In this document: positions 41,121 to 50,147 of the stretch, one piece after another
How positions within the stretch are numbered: position 1 is the stretch's first letter
How the letters are laid out: each line of letters begins with the position of its first letter
Sequence record: NC_049822.1
Length of the DNA: 51,739 nucleotides
Source: Escherichia phage vB_EcoS_G29-2
Direction: 5' to 3' (one strand)
The notes under the pieces: model-generated
What the model saw: the letters and a program-made list of their open reading frames with translations, nothing else
Database searches by the model: none
Told to the model about the DNA's origin: nothing
Translations under genes and position numbers: made by a program

Positions 41121-41822
41121 ATGATCAAAGAAACCGAAGTGACATTTGAACAAATCGAACGAGAAACATTCATTGGCAATGCTCTTGCTACCGGAGGCTA
41201 TTACCAGGCTGTTAAACCAAATCAATATTATAAAGTCACTGGCAACCGCTATAACGGCAGCAATACGCCGGACGTTGTGCGAGATTTGTGGTCTACGCCG
41301 TCTGAGCTTGTCGCATGGATGGAAATCGAATACGGTGATTATGACATCGACGCTGCGGCAAGCAAAGAAAATGCTGTATGTGAAAAATTCTACAGCAAGG
41401 AAACAAATTGCTTAAAGCGTTGGTGGGGTAGTAATAAGCATATCTGGCTGAATCCACCGTACAGCAATATAACGCCTTTCGTTAAGAAAGCGATTGAGCA
41501 AATGGAGCACAATAACCAGATCGACATTCTGTTACCTTGCGACACATCGACAGGATGGTTTTATGAGGCACAACAGAAAGCAGCGGAAATAATCTGGATC
41601 ACTGGCGAAGTTTACCAGGAGGAAGGAATAGAATATTCCAGAACTGGACGGCTTGCTTTCACTTCAGCGCTTACAGGTAAACCAGTGCAGGGAAACAACA
41701 AAGGAAGCGTTATTTTCATCATGCGCGAACTTAAAGAAGGTGAGCAGCAGAAAACTCGATACGTTAAGATCAGCGACATTTGCCCGTCAGTGGCAGAGCG
41801 TCGAGCAAGAAAGCGGAGTTAA
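41121..41822 (+). CDS. dam: DNA N6-adenine methyltransferase (phage Dam family)
   Basis: catalytic motif WLNPPYS (NPPY); size typical of phage Dam. Confidence 0.75.
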   Translation: MIKETEVTFEQIERETFIGNALATGGYYQAVKPNQYYKVTGNRYNGSNTPDVVRDLWSTPSELVAWMEIEYGDYDIDAAASKENAVCEKFYSKETNCLKRWWGSNKHIWLNPPYSNITPFVKKAIEQMEHNNQIDILLPCDTSTGWFYEAQQKAAEIIWITGEVYQEEGIEYSRTGRLAFTSALTGKPVQGNNKGSVIFIMRELKEGEQQKTRYVKISDICPSVAERRARKRS

Positions 41823-45839: not shown

Positions 45840-47423
45840 TTACCCCAGCAATGTTGGATTTACAAAAACAACGCCATTAATCACACAAATATAATTTCTT
45901 TCTTCAAGCATCGGCAGCAGTTGCGTTTCCATACGCTTCATTACGCCAGCCTGGCCAACAAACGGCTTAACTTTTCGTGCAGCCTCATATATGGCGCGAA
46001 CATTCAAGATCCCCTTGTTAGCCTTACCGTGTCGAGTGATAATCTCGATTAGTTTACCCATTTCAGCATCATCACCAGCATAGCCAGAAGCGTTGGCGGC
46101 GCTAATGTATGTTTTGCTCAACTCGCTAAACATCAGCAGTGCTTCTTGAACGGTTTCAACTTCAATCTCTTTCGACTTCTGAGGGTATCCACCAGGATTA
46201 AACCAGTTGCGGATAGTGTGCAAAACCGAAGCAATCCTGATCACCTGCTTATCCATTTTGCCAAGAGCACCGCGCAGCATTGTATGCGAATACTTTCCGC
46301 CATCAGCAAGGTGCGGCTCCATCTCCTGACGAGCTATGTTAAGAACTCGCATTGCTGATTTGCTGATCTTAAGCTGGATGTTTGATTCACTCATGATGTT
46401 ATGGATCAGCTTAAAATATTGACTTTTCAGTTCTCCATCAACAGGCTCATAAGTAGAATCACCGTTATCATCAACAAACTTTCGACGACCTAAAAATGAT
46501 TCCTCACGCACAAGCAAATAACGCTCACTCACACCGATACCGCGCGATCCTGCATCCATGATGGCATTGATTGTTTCATCCTGGGCAATCACCGCCATAC
46601 AGCCAAGAGCTTTAAAACTCATATTGTTGTCAGCGTTTGCACGAGCTATAGAAACATGACCATGATCCCATGCTTTCAGCACAAGTTCGCTGTTGGTTTT
46701 ACGTTCGCTATTAGCATATGTCAGACCTAAAAGGCTGTTAATACTCGTTGCCTCGTCTGAAATCACAGCAAAGTTACCCTGGCGATTGTTGATTCTTGCA
46801 AGTCCTTCCGGCGTGGTGTCGGACACAGGGAAAACAATGTCACACATCTTTTCCAGTTTTTCTTCCAGATCTTCTTTCTCCTGGTACAGAGATTCCATAT
46901 CAGCGCCGGAGCGCTCGCTTTTCATCTCTTTTGCAAGACCTGCCAACTTTGCCTGAATCTTTTTTCTTTCCTTCTTTCGCTGATCGTTAATTCTTTCCAC
47001 TTCTGCAACCATTGGAGCAAGTGCCAGGCTGTTAACGGCAGATTTACCAGTTGAAGGAGGCTGGCTTGTGACAACATAAAGAGCGGTCGGCTGATCCGTT
47101 CCGTGATACTCAACCGTGAAGCGTCCAAGCATTGCAGCAGACACGCAGCCGATAAAATGCATATATGCCGATGATTCAGGGAACTGAACTGAGCGAGCAA
47201 TGTTGCGCGCCAACTTACCAACAACATCAACATCATTGCCAAGAGAAATTACAGGGTAGCGATCATTTCCGTTATTAACATCATTAACCTCACCCCAAAA
47301 GCTGGACGATTGACGGTATCCGTTTGCCTGAATGGACACGCGCACCGGAGACAATCCTTGTGCATCAGCTAATTCGATAATTTGTTTTGGTGTTAGTTTG
47401 TTGGTTTCAAACGAAAAATTCAT
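45840..47423 (-). CDS. P-loop NTPase-containing protein (putative replication-associated)
   Basis: 527 aa from RBS-supported ATG (GGAG); Walker A-like SQPPSTGKSA. Confidence 0.6.
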   Translation of the reverse strand: MNFSFETNKLTPKQIIELADAQGLSPVRVSIQANGYRQSSSFWGEVNDVNNGNDRYPVISLGNDVDVVGKLARNIARSVQFPESSAYMHFIGCVSAAMLGRFTVEYHGTDQPTALYVVTSQPPSTGKSAVNSLALAPMVAEVERINDQRKKERKKIQAKLAGLAKEMKSERSGADMESLYQEKEDLEEKLEKMCDIVFPVSDTTPEGLARINNRQGNFAVISDEATSINSLLGLTYANSERKTNSELVLKAWDHGHVSIARANADNNMSFKALGCMAVIAQDETINAIMDAGSRGIGVSERYLLVREESFLGRRKFVDDNGDSTYEPVDGELKSQYFKLIHNIMSESNIQLKISKSAMRVLNIARQEMEPHLADGGKYSHTMLRGALGKMDKQVIRIASVLHTIRNWFNPGGYPQKSKEIEVETVQEALLMFSELSKTYISAANASGYAGDDAEMGKLIEIITRHGKANKGILNVRAIYEAARKVKPFVGQAGVMKRMETQLLPMLEERNYICVINGVVFVNPTLLG

Positions 47424-47452
47424 TGATGATAACTCCTTTTTTTGATGCGGCA

Positions 47453-47497
47453 ATAATACCGCACCAATGCTACCCGCATTTAACAAAAAATGCTATT
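47453..47497 (-). promoter_or_regulatory. conserved motif promoter (variant, -10 TATTAT in hairpin loop)
   Basis: AATAGCATTTTTTGTTAAAT then 19 bp then TATTAT. Confidence 0.5.
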
Positions 47498-47714
47498 TGA
47501 TCCGCTCTATGCTAACTAAGATTTTTTCTGGTTCCCTTGCGCTATGGCAATGCGCGGTTACGGAGTCAGCAAAATCAAAATAAAGTGATTTGTGGTAAGA
47601 AAGACCAATCAGCCATCCAACCATCGTTTTCTTTATTGGCCTGACTATATCGCCAGGCTTGAAGGTTTTTGTTGCTGAATGAGTCACCTTATAGCGATAT
47701 TCAGCCTTGATCAC
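47493..47714 (-). CDS. hypothetical protein (GTG start)
   Basis: GTGA overlap with upstream stop; stop embedded in motif copy. Confidence 0.45.
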   Translation of the reverse strand: MIKAEYRYKVTHSATKTFKPGDIVRPIKKTMVGWLIGLSYHKSLYFDFADSVTAHCHSAREPEKILVSIERIK

Positions 47715-48097
47715 TTATACATAGCCTCAAATAAATGACAGCCACCAGCGGAAAATCCTACTTCTTCGCGATATAGCGTCCAGCGGTCGCCAGCTTCATC
47801 AAAAACATAACCAGCAACAGCACCAAGCGCGCGCCCTTGCTCAATCTGGTAGCGCTTTCCTTCTTTGAAATGCTTTTTGCACGGGATCTTGTGATCTACA
47901 AATGTGCATTTAATTGTTTTTGTCTTGATATGACGATAGTCAGACTCAACAGCGTTTTTCCACTTGCTACCCTTTGTAATGCTCTTTACCTGGAATTGTT
48001 CCAACTCGATCACATCATCGCTACCAGCAATTTTTTCGTATACAGCTTTATAACGACCGTTCATCAAAACGTTGGTTTTATTGCAGATAACTTTCAT
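47711..48097 (-). CDS. hypothetical protein
   Basis: 128 aa, RBS GGAGAAA, leader CACCGAAACGAAAGGAGA. Confidence 0.55.
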   Translation of the reverse strand: MKVICNKTNVLMNGRYKAVYEKIAGSDDVIELEQFQVKSITKGSKWKNAVESDYRHIKTKTIKCTFVDHKIPCKKHFKEGKRYQIEQGRALGAVAGYVFDEAGDRWTLYREEVGFSAGGCHLFEAMYK

Positions 48098-48128
48098 CGT
48101 TTATTTCTCCTTTCGTTTCGGTGAAGTG

Positions 48129-48173
48129 ATTATGCCAGGCTTTTACACCTGGCTTTTAACAAAAAGTGCTATT
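48129..48173 (-). promoter_or_regulatory. conserved motif promoter (hairpin GCCAGG/CCTGGC, -10 CATAAT)
   Basis: minus-strand motif; same hairpin sequence as copy at 1254. Confidence 0.55.
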
Positions 48174-48879
48174 TTGCGTTTGCTTCAAAGACGGCGCGAG
48201 CAAAACCGCGCGGTGTGAGGGAGCGGATCATCTTTGTGCGAGACGATTTTCCGCCAGTTTTGGCCCAACCAGGATTATCCTTGTCGCCATCTTTAGGAAT
48301 GATTGTTGCGCGCGGAGGAATAACAAATCCGTTTCCAGTCCAAAGGCATGTTTTCTTAAAGTACCGATCCCGTGCCGGAATAATATCAGGAAAGTCGGGA
48401 TGTTTATCATCTTCCGGCAGATAGCCAGCATAATCGCACGGATGGAACGTATAATCAGGCTTGCGCCATAGCGTTGACAGCTTGCCTACAGGATTCTCTA
48501 TCATGTACGGAACACCGAAATAATCAGCAATTTGCGCCGCTATTTTGCAAGTGTCGGCGGCTTCATCCTGGAACGATGGATTCTCAATGCGTTTTTTAGC
48601 CCAATGGCGAGATCCGCTATTTGCAAGGTCAGTGCATGGAGGGAACGCCATAATAAAATCAGGCTTACCCCAATTTTCAAGTTTTGCGGTATATTTGAAT
48701 AGATCATCAATCCACGCGTTAACGTAAAAGATATTGTCATGGATTATGCGCACTGAGTGGTAATCACCGTGATCAGCATCATCGTAATTAAAGCAAATGC
48801 ATTTATATCCAGCATCAGCCCAATCTTTAACGGCTTTACCGGATCCATCAAACAAAGAGAAAATTAAACCCTTATACAT
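48169..48879 (-). CDS. putative DNA (cytosine-5) methyltransferase, compact
   Basis: motif I-like LFDGSG, motif IV-like FPPC, motif VI-like ENPVG; RBS GAGGTGA. Confidence 0.5.
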   Translation of the reverse strand: MYKGLIFSLFDGSGKAVKDWADAGYKCICFNYDDADHGDYHSVRIIHDNIFYVNAWIDDLFKYTAKLENWGKPDFIMAFPPCTDLANSGSRHWAKKRIENPSFQDEAADTCKIAAQIADYFGVPYMIENPVGKLSTLWRKPDYTFHPCDYAGYLPEDDKHPDFPDIIPARDRYFKKTCLWTGNGFVIPPRATIIPKDGDKDNPGWAKTGGKSSRTKMIRSLTPRGFARAVFEANAK

Positions 48880-48888
48880 TTCATCACC

Positions 48889-49113
48889 TCAAAACGGAAA
48901 GCATCGCGGACAGTTAGGATCAAAATTGCAGCCGCAATCATTAACAATCATCGTTGGATCTGCAAATGCAGCACCGCATTCATGTTCCATATCCATTTCA
49001 CCCAACGCATCATCAAGTGTCCTGATCTTATATGCAACTTCAAGAGCAGCCTCTTTATTCAGCCCAGCATCTTCCGCTTTTTGCAGTCGCTCAAAAAATC
49101 CGTCCTGGCTCAT
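48889..49113 (-). CDS. hypothetical protein with C-terminal Cys cluster
   Basis: CGCNFDPNCPRC at C-terminus. Confidence 0.5.
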   Translation of the reverse strand: MSQDGFFERLQKAEDAGLNKEAALEVAYKIRTLDDALGEMDMEHECGAAFADPTMIVNDCGCNFDPNCPRCFPF

Positions 49114-49223
49114 TTCATAAGCTCCTTGATAACAATCAGAATAGTAGCAATAACAGCAGTGACAACTAAAAGACCAGCAAGGCTCATCATCACACCAAAT
49201 AAAATATCAAGAAATTTCGTCAT
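49110..49223 (-). CDS. small hydrophobic peptide (37 aa)
   Basis: not in track; RBS AGGTGA; single TM MTKFLDILFGVMMSLAGLLVVTAVIATILIVI. Confidence 0.3.
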   Translation of the reverse strand: MTKFLDILFGVMMSLAGLLVVTAVIATILIVIKELMK

Positions 49224-49240
49224 TATTATCACCTTTATTT

Positions 49241-49265
49241 AAAGGGAGGCGAAACCTCCCGTTTA
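49241..49265 (-). terminator. rho-independent terminator
   Basis: minus-strand GGGAGG-TTTCGC-CTCCC + TTTAAAT. Confidence 0.55.
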
Positions 49266-49269
49266 TTAA

Positions 49270-49497
49270 TTAGATAGCCTTCCAACTTTCAATGAACATG
49301 CTGTTCTCTTCAAGAAGTTTAATCAATTCTTCGCGCGTATATTTGCGGATTTTACTACCTGGATGCGAGCCAACAACAAACACACCTTTACCGCTCGTGA
49401 TTGTTAACTGGTTGATTCCGCAAGATTTATCCATCTTAATGGCGACGCGGTGATGTGCATCAACAGTGTGCATGATGTTAGTGATTTTGGCTTTCAT
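49270..49497 (-). CDS. hypothetical protein
   Basis: 75 aa, terminator hairpin after stop. Confidence 0.5.
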   Translation of the reverse strand: MKAKITNIMHTVDAHHRVAIKMDKSCGINQLTITSGKGVFVVGSHPGSKIRKYTREELIKLLEENSMFIESWKAI

Positions 49498-49671
49498 TAT
49501 GCAATCCTCATTATATTTGGTGTGGTAACTATATCAGGTTTGAGAAATATTGTTTAGCAATTTGTGCTATCAGTTGAAATAGCTATGGCGATTTGCTCGC
49601 TTTCCGTCTCCGCCATAATGATCATTAGAAACGGGAATCATCCAGGAATTATGAAATATTATTAGTCTCAT

Positions 49672-49953
49672 CTAATTAATGCCAACAACGTTAAAACTTA
49701 CAGCTTTTGTTGCGCTAAACACATACGCTTCAACAGCCTCACCAAATACACGAATTTTTCCCTGGCCGTACTGCGCATTCATATTGCGCCAAACCGTCCT
49801 GTTAGAACAGAACGCGCTACCAGTCTTGATAAGATTATCCATCTCTTTCCTTAGATCATGATAATCAAGCCAGAATCTATAAGCGCGTTGTTTAATGAGT
49901 TGTGCCTTGATTGTTTCAGTTGAGTTTTTAAAATCGCTGTTTGTGTAGGCCAT
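49672..49953 (-). CDS. hypothetical protein
   Basis: RBS GGAGG; TAATG coupling with upstream gene. Confidence 0.5.
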   Translation of the reverse strand: MAYTNSDFKNSTETIKAQLIKQRAYRFWLDYHDLRKEMDNLIKTGSAFCSNRTVWRNMNAQYGQGKIRVFGEAVEAYVFSATKAVSFNVVGIN

Positions 49954-50147
49954 TACACAACCTCCATAAAAGTATTGAATCCACGCAGTTTGAAAGCATT
50001 GCCATGTTTAACAACGTTCCATGTCAGGCCGGAGTGATACGCAACCATATCCTCAAGATCAATGGTGATGATAGCGCCTTTCTTAAAGATTCCTTTCTCG
50101 TGAGTGGTGTCACGCTGTACAACTTTAACATCAACTTGATTTTCCAT
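49953..50147 (-). CDS. hypothetical protein
   Basis: RBS GAGGA and conserved leader downstream of motif promoter 50178-50223. Confidence 0.5.
   Translation of the reverse strand: MENQVDVKVVQRDTTHEKGIFKKGAIITIDLEDMVAYHSGLTWNVVKHGNAFKLRGFNTFMEVV

What the first reader, a model, noticed from the sequence alone, without database searches (positions are those of the whole stretch)
48169..48879. Second, compact putative C5-cytosine methyltransferase in the leftward block
A 236-aa protein carries motif-like blocks in the canonical order: LFDGSG (motif I, AdoMet binding), FPPC (motif IV, catalytic Cys) and ENPVG (motif VI). It is short for a C5-MTase and may lack a standard target-recognition domain, so either a minimal MTase or a different fold with chance motif matches. 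With Dam, it would give the phage two orphan methylases.
Basis: inference. Interest (0 to 1): 0.6.

Follow-up and report, generated by a model that had tools for sequence, protein, structure and literature searches.

The report
Compact phage cytosine-5 DNA methyltransferase, already known
The 236-residue gene is a real, unusually small phage DNA cytosine-5 methyltransferase, but it is already annotated in sister phages, and a preprint shows that the equivalent gene of a related phage makes 5-methylcytosine and sets off the bacterial retron Ec86 defence.

Summary

It is not new. The window is a Hanrivervirus (Drexlerviridae). The protein is 100% identical to that of phage herni and 96% identical to KarlJaspers bas06_0055, annotated "Dcm-like C5 cytosine methyltransferase". 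A preprint (10.1101/2023.08.16.553469; Cell Rep 2024) reports that the 711-bp dcm of the KarlJaspers-like phage K42 puts 5mC on retron Ec86 msDNA and triggers that defence. Its inactive mutant (C82A/E128A/K175A/K176A) uses the residue numbers found here.

A Dam gene lies at 41121..41822 and no nuclease partner was found, so the phage has two orphan methylases. The target sequence is still open: CCWGG is inferred only indirectly, and the protein has no detectable sequence similarity to E. coli Dcm.

The parts
48169..48879 (-). CDS (stop codon included) for the 236-aa compact orphan DNA cytosine-5 methyltransferase ('phage Dcm', PHROG 757)
   Evidence: ORF listing and sequence. PHROG 757 E = 8.5e-86. 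100% identical to the phage herni protein and 96% to KarlJaspers bas06_0055. C5-MTase fold.
48884..48890 (-). Shine-Dalgarno sequence GAGGTGA, 4-10 nt upstream of the ATG. The stop codon of the upstream 74-aa ORF (48889..49113) overlaps it.
   Evidence: Read directly. The K42 retron escapers mut#2 and mut#3 carry a C-to-A change 9 bp upstream of the dcm start. In this window position -9 is a G of GAGG on the coding strand, which is a C on the + strand. The link to those mutants is an inference.
48838..48855 (-). Motif I, LFDGSG (residues 9-14), the AdoMet-binding loop after strand beta-1
   Evidence: Sequence. Strand E5-9 followed by helix H15-22 in the model. Aligns to DNMT3B 'SLFDGIATG'. The family pattern is F-D-x-[ST]-G.
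48634..48645 (-). Motif IV, FPPC (residues 79-82), with the catalytic nucleophile Cys82
   Evidence: Cys82 is invariant in 54 close and 76 diverse relatives. It aligns to the PC dipeptide of DNMT3B and M.HaeIII. C82A is part of the inactive K42 mutant.
48484..48498 (-). Motif VI, ENPVG (residues 128-132). Glu128 is the residue expected to protonate cytosine N3.
   Evidence: E128 99%, N129 95% and P130 100% conserved. Located at the end of strand E125-130. E128A is part of the inactive K42 mutant.
48334..48369 (-). Motif VIII-equivalent, D171-x-Y173-x-K175-K176-T177 plus strand CLWTG (residues 171-182). It stands where the canonical QxRxR motif would be.
   Evidence: Y173 100%, K175 99%, T177 97% and W180 99% conserved. 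Strand E177-182. K175A and K176A are part of the inactive K42 mutant. Calling it motif VIII is an inference from its position in the fold.
48244..48333 (-). Very short target-recognition segment (residues 183-212). The start (G-x-G-F-x-x-P188) is conserved. Residues about 191-210 are variable and prone to insertions and deletions.
   Evidence: Apart from the motif II-IV linker (residues 31-70), this is the most variable stretch and it holds an indel hotspect (about 2 inserted residues per sequence on average after residues 191-200). It also has the lowest pLDDT in the model (69-87). Its position between motifs VIII and IX defines it as TRD-equivalent.
48178..48243 (-). C-terminal motif IX/X-equivalent helices, RTKMIRSLTPRGFARAVFEAN (residues 213-234)
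   Evidence: R219 97%, S220 91%, P223 93% and G225 97% conserved. Helices H213-220 and H224-234. A local BLASTP alignment pairs RSLTPRGFARAV with motif IX of E. coli Dcm (RRLTPRECARLMGF), but it is not significant (E = 3.7).
41121..41822 (+). Second orphan methylase: T1-type Dam N6-adenine DNA methyltransferase (233 aa)
   Evidence: 99% identical by tblastn to JakobBernoulli bas07_0041 'Dam-like N6-adenine methyltransferase'. PF05869 E = 6.4e-61 and PHROG 111 E = 3.4e-83.

Best explanation
The gene encodes an active, stand-alone (orphan) DNA cytosine-5 methyltransferase of a very compact, phage-borne lineage (PHROG 757, about 210-260 aa). It has the class-I AdoMet fold of C5-MTases. Inferred mechanism: the FDGSG loop binds AdoMet; Cys82 of FPPC attacks C6 of a flipped-out cytosine; Glu128 of ENP protonates N3; Lys175/Lys176 take the place of the motif VIII arginines; the methyl group goes to C5. 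Target recognition must rest on a segment of only about 30 residues (183-212) plus the catalytic loop, much as in the DNMT3 enzymes, which are its closest structural relatives. The gene sits in the leftward block of small genes with no nuclease partner. Together with the phage Dam, it most likely pre-methylates phage DNA to blunt restriction (inferred). A reported side effect for the K42 gene is that it methylates the stem-loop of retron Ec86 (Eco1) msDNA at or near a CCTGG site, which switches on that abortive-infection system. What is shown here: the ORF, the motifs, the fold, the conservation, the orphan status, and near-identity to already annotated genes. What is taken from the literature: 5mC formation and retron triggering. 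What is inferred: the anti-restriction role and CCWGG as the genome-wide target.
Against: Sequence similarity to the curated C5-MTase family is sub-threshold: PF00145 scores 12.1 bits against a cutoff of 22, E = 0.13, over residues 7-93 only. NCBIfam gives no hit. PDB sequence and profile searches give E >= 0.13. The canonical motif VIII (QxRxR) and motif X (GN-V) are not recognisable. The motif II acidic residue, Asp in 93% of the wider family, is Asn31 in this clade. The K42 protein sequence itself was not available, so identity with the tested protein is inferred from KarlJaspers Bas06 (96%) and the matching residue numbers. CCWGG specificity is weakly founded. There is no detectable sequence similarity to E. 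coli Dcm or its TRD (hhalign probability 0.3%, BLASTP E = 1.9). The preprint's assays were run in dcm+ MG1655, where the host Dcm left msDNA largely unmethylated and did not trigger Ec86. That is awkward if both enzymes methylate the same cytosine. No methylome of virion DNA was found in the literature searches. The BASEL study found no pattern linking the methyltransferases of Drexlerviridae to restriction resistance.
Confidence: 0.9

Rival explanations
1. It is an active DNA C5-MTase, but its target is not the host-like inner cytosine of CCWGG. It could methylate a shorter or more relaxed site, the outer cytosine of CCWGG, or it could prefer hairpin or single-stranded DNA. The 'Dcm-like' label would then be correct chemically but misleading about specificity.
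For: There is no detectable sequence similarity to E. coli Dcm or its TRD. The TRD-equivalent is only about 30 residues, and its central 20 residues vary in length and sequence across the family, which suggests differing or short specificities. The closest structures are the DNMT3 enzymes, which read a 2-bp site. In dcm+ MG1655 the host enzyme neither methylated msDNA strongly nor triggered Ec86, whereas phage Dcm did both. The CCTGG mutagenesis shows only that these two cytosines matter.
Against: All three CCTGG mutants (AATGG, ACTGG, CATGG) lost defence, as expected for a CCWGG enzyme. CCWGG is at expectation in the genome while many other palindromes are depleted. The weak action of host Dcm on msDNA could simply reflect expression level or access to the filament.
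Confidence: 0.3
2. It has the C5-MTase fold but acts on RNA, such as tRNA in the manner of DNMT2. DNA methylation would be a minor side activity.
Against: DNA enzymes score higher (DNMT3B 14.5, M.HhaI 11.7). 5mC was detected on msDNA and depended on the catalytic residues. The family has none of the DNMT2-specific motifs in the alignment.
Confidence: 0.03
3. It transfers a group other than methyl, for example carboxymethyl from carboxy-SAM as in the enzyme of PDB 8yf3, or it starts a hypermodification pathway.
Confidence: 0.03
4. The motifs are chance matches in a protein with a different fold, or in an inactive relic.
For: Pfam PF00145 is below threshold and covers only residues 7-93. NCBIfam gives no hit.
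Against: The model is confident and has a C5-MTase fold. Catalytic residues are invariant or nearly so in a family of more than 1200 representative clusters. There are genetic and biochemical data for the equivalent gene of phage K42.
Confidence: 0.01

Closest known systems
Phage K42 / KarlJaspers 'Dcm', the trigger of retron Ec86 (Eco1) (preprint 10.1101/2023.08.16.553469; Wang et al., Cell Rep 2024, 43:114857)
   Same: Same genus (Hanrivervirus) and same 711-bp gene. The gene order is the same as in KarlJaspers Bas06: helicase, two small ORFs, dcm, small ORFs. The window protein is 96% identical to the KarlJaspers Bas06 protein, and the mutated residues C82, E128, K175 and K176 are at identical positions.
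   Different: The K42 sequence itself could not be compared. No microhomology spaced at the 2,262 bp of the K42 mut#1 deletion flanks the gene here, so nothing shows that the window is K42. Activity of this exact allele has not been tested.
PHROG 757 / GenBank 'DNA cytosine methyltransferase' of Drexlerviridae, Vequintavirinae and other enterobacterial phages
   Same: Full-length match at E = 8.5e-86. Homologues in 1501 phage records, 1470 of them covering at least 80% of the query, mostly of similar size. Widely annotated as a DNA or cytosine methyltransferase.
   Different: None of substance. This is an ordinary member, 100% identical to the protein of phage herni.
DNMT3A/DNMT3B catalytic domain (eukaryotic de novo C5-MTases)
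   Different: Only 11-17% identity. There are no regulatory domains, and no evidence that it forms a DNMT3-like tetramer or dimer interface. Motif VI is ENP rather than ENV, and motif VIII carries Lys rather than Arg. The resemblance is structural, not evidence of close descent.
E. coli Dcm / M.EcoRII (CCWGG C5-MTases, PF00145)
   Same: Same chemistry (5mC) and the same order of catalytic motifs. The preprint proposes the same target, CCWGG.
   Different: Half the length (236 against 472 aa). No significant sequence similarity. No homologous TRD. No Vsr partner among the neighbouring ORFs scanned. PF00145 is below its gathering score. It is not an orthologue of Dcm.
Bacterial type II C5-MTases such as M.HhaI and M.HaeIII
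   Different: Those enzymes carry a large TRD between motifs VIII and IX and usually pair with a restriction enzyme. Here the segment is about 30 residues and there is no nuclease partner.

Membership tests
DNA (cytosine-5) methyltransferases (EC 2.1.1.37; Pfam PF00145) | Class-I AdoMet-dependent methyltransferase fold with C5-MTase topology | tested here: met
DNA (cytosine-5) methyltransferases (EC 2.1.1.37; Pfam PF00145) | Motif I (F-x-G-x-G) AdoMet-binding loop after beta-1 | tested here: met
   F10-D-G-S-G14 follows strand E5-9. In the wider family the pattern relaxes to F-D-x-[ST]-G.
DNA (cytosine-5) methyltransferases (EC 2.1.1.37; Pfam PF00145) | Motif IV Pro-Cys with the catalytic cysteine | tested here: met
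   P81-C82. Cys is 100% conserved in 76 diverse relatives.
DNA (cytosine-5) methyltransferases (EC 2.1.1.37; Pfam PF00145) | Motif VI E-N-V with the catalytic glutamate | tested here: met
   E128-N129-P130, a variant (ENP). Conservation is E 99%, N 95%, P 100%.
DNA (cytosine-5) methyltransferases (EC 2.1.1.37; Pfam PF00145) | Motif VIII Q-x-R-x-R (arginines that hold the flipped cytosine) | tested here: inconclusive
   No QxRxR is present. The equivalent position holds D171-x-Y173-x-K175-K176-T177, which is highly conserved. A functional role for K175/K176 is only implied by the quadruple mutant of the K42 protein.
DNA (cytosine-5) methyltransferases (EC 2.1.1.37; Pfam PF00145) | Sizeable target-recognition domain between motifs VIII and IX | tested here: not met
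   Only about 30 residues (183-212) lie there. 193 of 236 residues align to the DNMT3B core.
DNA (cytosine-5) methyltransferases (EC 2.1.1.37; Pfam PF00145) | Score above the Pfam gathering threshold | tested here: not met
   12.1 bits against a cutoff of 22, E = 0.13, residues 7-93 only. 12 of 54 close relatives and 2 of 76 distant relatives reach E <= 0.01. NCBIfam gives no hit.
DNA (cytosine-5) methyltransferases (EC 2.1.1.37; Pfam PF00145) | Forms 5-methylcytosine in DNA | not testable with these tools
   Reported by LC-MS for the K42 protein and lost in the C82A/E128A/K175A/K176A mutant. Not measured for this allele.
E. coli Dcm / EcoRII-type CCWGG methyltransferases | Sequence homology to Dcm, including its TRD | tested here: not met
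   hhalign of the family profile against Dcm gives probability 0.3%, E = 0.18. BLASTP gives E = 1.9.
E. coli Dcm / EcoRII-type CCWGG methyltransferases | Methylates the inner cytosine of CCWGG | not testable with these tools
   The only evidence is indirect: msDNA CCTGG mutants lose defence, and CCWGG is not depleted in the genome (118 observed, 121 expected).
PHROG 757 (compact phage DNA methyltransferase) | Full-length match to the family profile | tested here: met
   E = 8.5e-86, residues 2-235 against profile positions 13-219 of 247.
Phage Dcm that triggers retron Ec86 (Eco1) | Orthology to the K42 dcm gene (711 bp; C82, E128, K175, K176) | tested here: met
   The gene is 711 bp. All four residues are at the same numbers. 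It is 96% identical to the KarlJaspers Bas06 protein in the same gene order. The K42 sequence itself was not available.
Phage Dcm that triggers retron Ec86 (Eco1) | Activates Ec86 by methylating its msDNA | not testable with these tools
   Literature only.
Orphan (solitary) methyltransferase | No cognate restriction endonuclease next to the gene | tested here: met
   The neighbours are small ORFs in PHROGs of unknown function and a DUF3987 helicase. None matches a nuclease family. Sister genomes are annotated the same way.

The most novel reading that the evidence does not exclude
This compact lineage may recognise DNA differently from classical bacterial C5-MTases. It has an almost absent TRD and a DNMT3-like core, and might work as a dimer. 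Its specificity may differ from the host Dcm: a shorter site, the outer cytosine of CCWGG, or a preference for hairpin or single-stranded DNA. That would explain why host Dcm in K-12 neither methylates Ec86 msDNA strongly nor triggers the retron, while the phage enzyme does both. It would also make these roughly 230-aa proteins the smallest sequence-reading C5-MTases.
Probability: 0.25. Interest if true: 0.5.

Novelty: already known. Interest (0 to 1): 0.2.

Why it matters
For this window it mainly settles an annotation. The gene is a genuine cytosine-5 methyltransferase, one of two orphan methylases in a T1-like (Hanrivervirus) phage. The same protein is annotated in phage herni and close relatives, and the K42 version is the reported trigger of retron Ec86/Eco1. 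This phage is therefore predicted to be sensitive to Ec86 in hosts such as E. coli BL21 and to escape by losing the gene. Two points remain open. First, the family is very large (more than 1200 representative clusters at 50% identity, homologues in 1501 phage records) yet Pfam and NCBIfam barely detect it or miss it, and no solved structure exists. Second, how a core with a recognition segment of about 30 residues selects its target, and what that target is genome-wide, has not been measured directly in anything I could find.

Tried and rejected
1. Sequence-only classification was too weak to decide. Pfam PF00145 was sub-threshold, NCBIfam gave nothing, PADLOC MTase_II scored E = 0.003, and PDB phmmer and profile searches gave E >= 0.13. 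A more diverse profile (A2) did worse against PDB and Pfam, not better.
2. I tested the 'Dcm-like' label by fetching E. coli K-12 dcm and comparing it. There was no significant similarity, so orthology to Dcm was rejected.
3. I tried to read the published Cell Rep 2024 paper. It is not held, so I used the preprint plus a citation of the published version.
4. I searched for methylome data on Drexlerviridae ('Drexlerviridae' + '5mC'; 'Dcm-like' + 'phage'). Nothing relevant turned up beyond the retron work.
5. I asked whether the window is phage K42 itself by looking for microhomology spaced 2,262 bp apart around dcm, the size of the escaper mut#1 deletion. None was found, so the question is left open. 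The window is a mosaic that is about 95-96% identical to SFP17, slyngel, egaa and herni over long stretches.
6. Oligonucleotide statistics as a proxy for specificity: GATC and CCWGG are at expectation and several 6-mers are depleted. This is suggestive only and was not used as proof.
7. The afdb50 fold library was unavailable.
8. I considered comparing CCWGG content in Drexlerviridae with and without the gene. I did not run it because the power would be low and host Dcm confounds the signal.

Full report
**Observation.** The ORF is real and at the stated coordinates: 48169..48879 on the - strand, ATG start, 236 aa. A GAGGTGA Shine-Dalgarno sequence lies 4-10 nt upstream of the ATG. The stop codon of the preceding 74-aa ORF is 9 nt upstream of the ATG, so the gene sits in a tightly packed leftward block of small genes.

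**What the window is.** The 3 kb around the gene is 99.8% identical to Escherichia phage herni and 92-96% identical to other Hanrivervirus phages (Drexlerviridae, Tempevirinae). Over its whole length the window is a mosaic, about 95-96% identical to SFP17, slyngel, egaa and herni. The protein is 100% identical to herni's 'putative site specific DNA methylase'. It is 96% identical (227 of 236, no gaps) to KarlJaspers bas06_0055, annotated 'Dcm-like C5 cytosine methyltransferase' and lying in the same gene order. JakobBernoulli carries the same annotation.

**Is it a C5-methyltransferase?**

- *Sequence alone is equivocal.*
  - PF00145 scores 12.1 bits against a gathering score of 22 (E = 0.13, residues 7-93 only).
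  - NCBIfam has no hit.
  - The best PDB sequence matches are DNMT3B, around motifs I-IV, at E = 0.13-0.6.
  - PHROG 757 'DNA methyltransferase' matches at E = 8.5e-86.
  - 12 of 54 closer relatives reach PF00145 at E <= 0.01, best 1.3e-6.
- *Structure decides it.*
  - An AlphaFold2 model built on 54 homologues has mean pLDDT 93.2 and pTM 0.90.
  - The Foldseek hits against the PDB are DNMT3A/B/C catalytic domains, best E = 1.8e-7.
- *Conservation agrees.* In 76 representatives that share 33-56% identity with the query, C82, P130, P147, Y173 and P188 are invariant. E128, K175 and W180 are 99% conserved, T177 97%, N129 95% and R219 97%.

The 'chance motifs in another fold' option is therefore rejected.

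**Anatomy.**

- The secondary-structure order maps onto the C5-MTase core as follows:
  - beta-1 and motif I: residues 5-14.
  - beta-4 and motif IV: 75-82.
  - Catalytic loop: 83-92.
  - Long helix: 103-121.
  - beta-5 and motif VI: 125-130.
  - A strand at 177-182, preceded by D171-x-Y-x-K-K-T, where motif VIII (QxRxR) would be.
  - Two C-terminal helices (213-220, 224-234) carrying RSLTPRGFARAVFEAN. This resembles motif IX: it pairs with Dcm's RRLTPRECARLMGF in a non-significant local alignment.
- Only about 30 residues (183-212) occupy the place of the target-recognition domain.
- Residues about 191-210 are a variable, indel-prone stretch of the family alignment and have the lowest model confidence. 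Only the motif II-IV linker (residues 31-70) varies more.
- The usual acidic residue of motif II (Asp in 93% of the family) is Asn31 in this clade.

**Is it already known?** Yes.

- GenBank annotations aside, the preprint 10.1101/2023.08.16.553469 studied phage K42, described as 95.4% identical to KarlJaspers Bas06. It is cited as published in Cell Rep 43:114857, 2024. It reports:
  - All four escapers of retron Ec86 disrupt a 711-bp dcm gene.
  - Expressing Dcm is toxic only when Ec86 is present.
  - LC-MS shows high 5mC on msDNA with wild-type Dcm, but not with a C82A/E128A/K175A/K176A mutant.
  - Changing the CCTGG in the msDNA stem abolishes defence.
  - 34 of 35 Ec86-sensitive phages in their collection encode Dcm.
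- The window gene is also 711 bp and has C, E, K and K at exactly those four positions.
- Two escapers carry a C-to-A change 9 bp upstream of the start. In the window, position -9 is a G of the GAGG Shine-Dalgarno on the coding strand, which is a C on the + strand. This fits a ribosome-binding-site mutation (inference).
- Later papers treat the methylation trigger as established.

**Orphan status and the second methylase.**

- A T1-type Dam gene lies at 41121..41822 (+). It matches PF05869 at E = 6.4e-61 and is 99% identical to JakobBernoulli's Dam-like gene.
- The genes flanking dcm are small ORFs in PHROGs of unknown function and a DUF3987 helicase. No nuclease family was matched.
- 'Two orphan methylases' is confirmed.

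**What remains uncertain.**

- 'Dcm-like' describes the chemistry only.
  - The protein is half the length of E. coli Dcm and has no significant similarity to it (hhalign probability 0.3%, BLASTP E = 1.9).
  - CCWGG specificity therefore cannot be inferred from homology.
- The evidence for CCWGG is indirect.
  - It rests on the msDNA mutagenesis.
  - The retron assays were done in dcm+ MG1655, where host Dcm left msDNA poorly methylated and did not trigger the system. That observation sits awkwardly with identical specificity.
  - In the window, GATC (292 observed, 283 expected) and CCWGG (118 observed, 121 expected) are at expectation. Several 6-bp palindromes are nearly absent: AAGCTT 0 against 15.6, GATATC 0 against 11.4, GCATGC 0 against 9.8, GGCGCC 2 against 19.2. 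This is compatible with protection of those two motifs but does not prove it.
- I found no virion methylome for this phage group.
- The BASEL study found no pattern linking the methyltransferases of Drexlerviridae to restriction resistance.

**Family context.**

- The lineage is large: 3363 proteins in the word-indexed search, 1270 representative clusters at E <= 1e-3 and homologues in 1501 phage records, mostly from Escherichia, Klebsiella and Salmonella phages.
- Nearly all members are 210-260 aa.
- It has no solved structure, and Pfam and NCBIfam barely detect it or miss it.
- In BFVD the same fold also occurs inside two very long phage proteins (1126 and 1397 aa), one of them annotated with a helicase N-terminal domain.

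**Verdict.** It is an ordinary member of a recognised phage family of compact C5-cytosine methyltransferases, and the equivalent gene of phage K42 has been characterised as the Ec86/Eco1 retron trigger. The remaining interest lies in the unmeasured genome-wide specificity and in how such a small enzyme recognises its target.

Noticed in passing
window 48134-48153 (- strand transcript), in the 71-nt gap between the dcm stop codon and the next gene (start at 48097): There is a 7-bp hairpin, GCCAGGU...GCCUGGC, whose two arms are themselves CCWGG sites (+ strand positions 48135 and 48148). The intergenic RNA folds at -17.7 kcal/mol, z = -3.0 against shuffles. No U-tract follows, so it does not look like a classical terminator. 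A possible link to Dcm, such as autoregulation or a methylation-sensitive site, is pure speculation.
   Followed up: partly
whole window: Several 6-bp palindromes are strongly avoided: AAGCTT 0 against 15.6 expected, GATATC 0 against 11.4, GCATGC 0 against 9.8, GGCGCC 2 against 19.2, TCCGGA 2 against 18.0, GGATCC 3 against 14.2. GGCC (73 against 127.6) and AGCT (144 against 199.9) are also low. GATC and CCWGG are at expectation. Avoiding restriction sites probably contributes to the restriction resistance reported for Hanrivervirus.
   Followed up: partly
window 48787-48789 (- strand), residue 31 of the methyltransferase: The acidic residue after strand beta-2 (motif II, the usual ligand of the AdoMet ribose) is Asp in 93% of the wider family. 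It is Asn in this protein and is invariant Asn in the 54 closer relatives. KarlJaspers Bas06 has the same Asn. If K42 shares it, as seems likely, the substitution is compatible with the activity reported for K42 Dcm.
   Followed up: partly
BFVD entries A0A6J5SE15 (1397 aa) and A0A6J5NPY6 (1126 aa), found through the model of window 48169-48879: The same compact methyltransferase fold (28-30% identity, 236-237 alignment columns, gaps included) is embedded in two very long proteins of uncultured Caudovirales. One is annotated 'Helicase/UvrB, N-terminal'; the other is uncharacterized. These may be multi-domain anti-restriction proteins.
   Followed up: no
phage collection hits to window 47000-50000 and to the protein: 20 records by DNA and 39 by protein, all named 'Campylobacter phage' with host Campylobacter jejuni, match this E. 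coli T1-like region. That is unexpected for such a distant host. It suggests mislabelled or contaminated records.
   Followed up: no
window 45840-47486 (-): The gene downstream in the block is a DUF3987 / PHROG 2373 'DNA helicase' (PF13148 E = 2.1e-43). The ORF listing starts it at a TTG (548 aa), while sister genomes annotate a 527-aa protein (1584-bp CDS, stop included). The true start is probably an internal ATG.
   Followed up: no
whole window (51,739 bp): The length is close to the '~51.7 kb' given for phage K42 in the retron preprint. However, no record more than 96% identical over long stretches is in the phage collection. No microhomology matching the 2,262-bp escaper deletion was found. 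The identity of the phage therefore stays open.
   Followed up: partly
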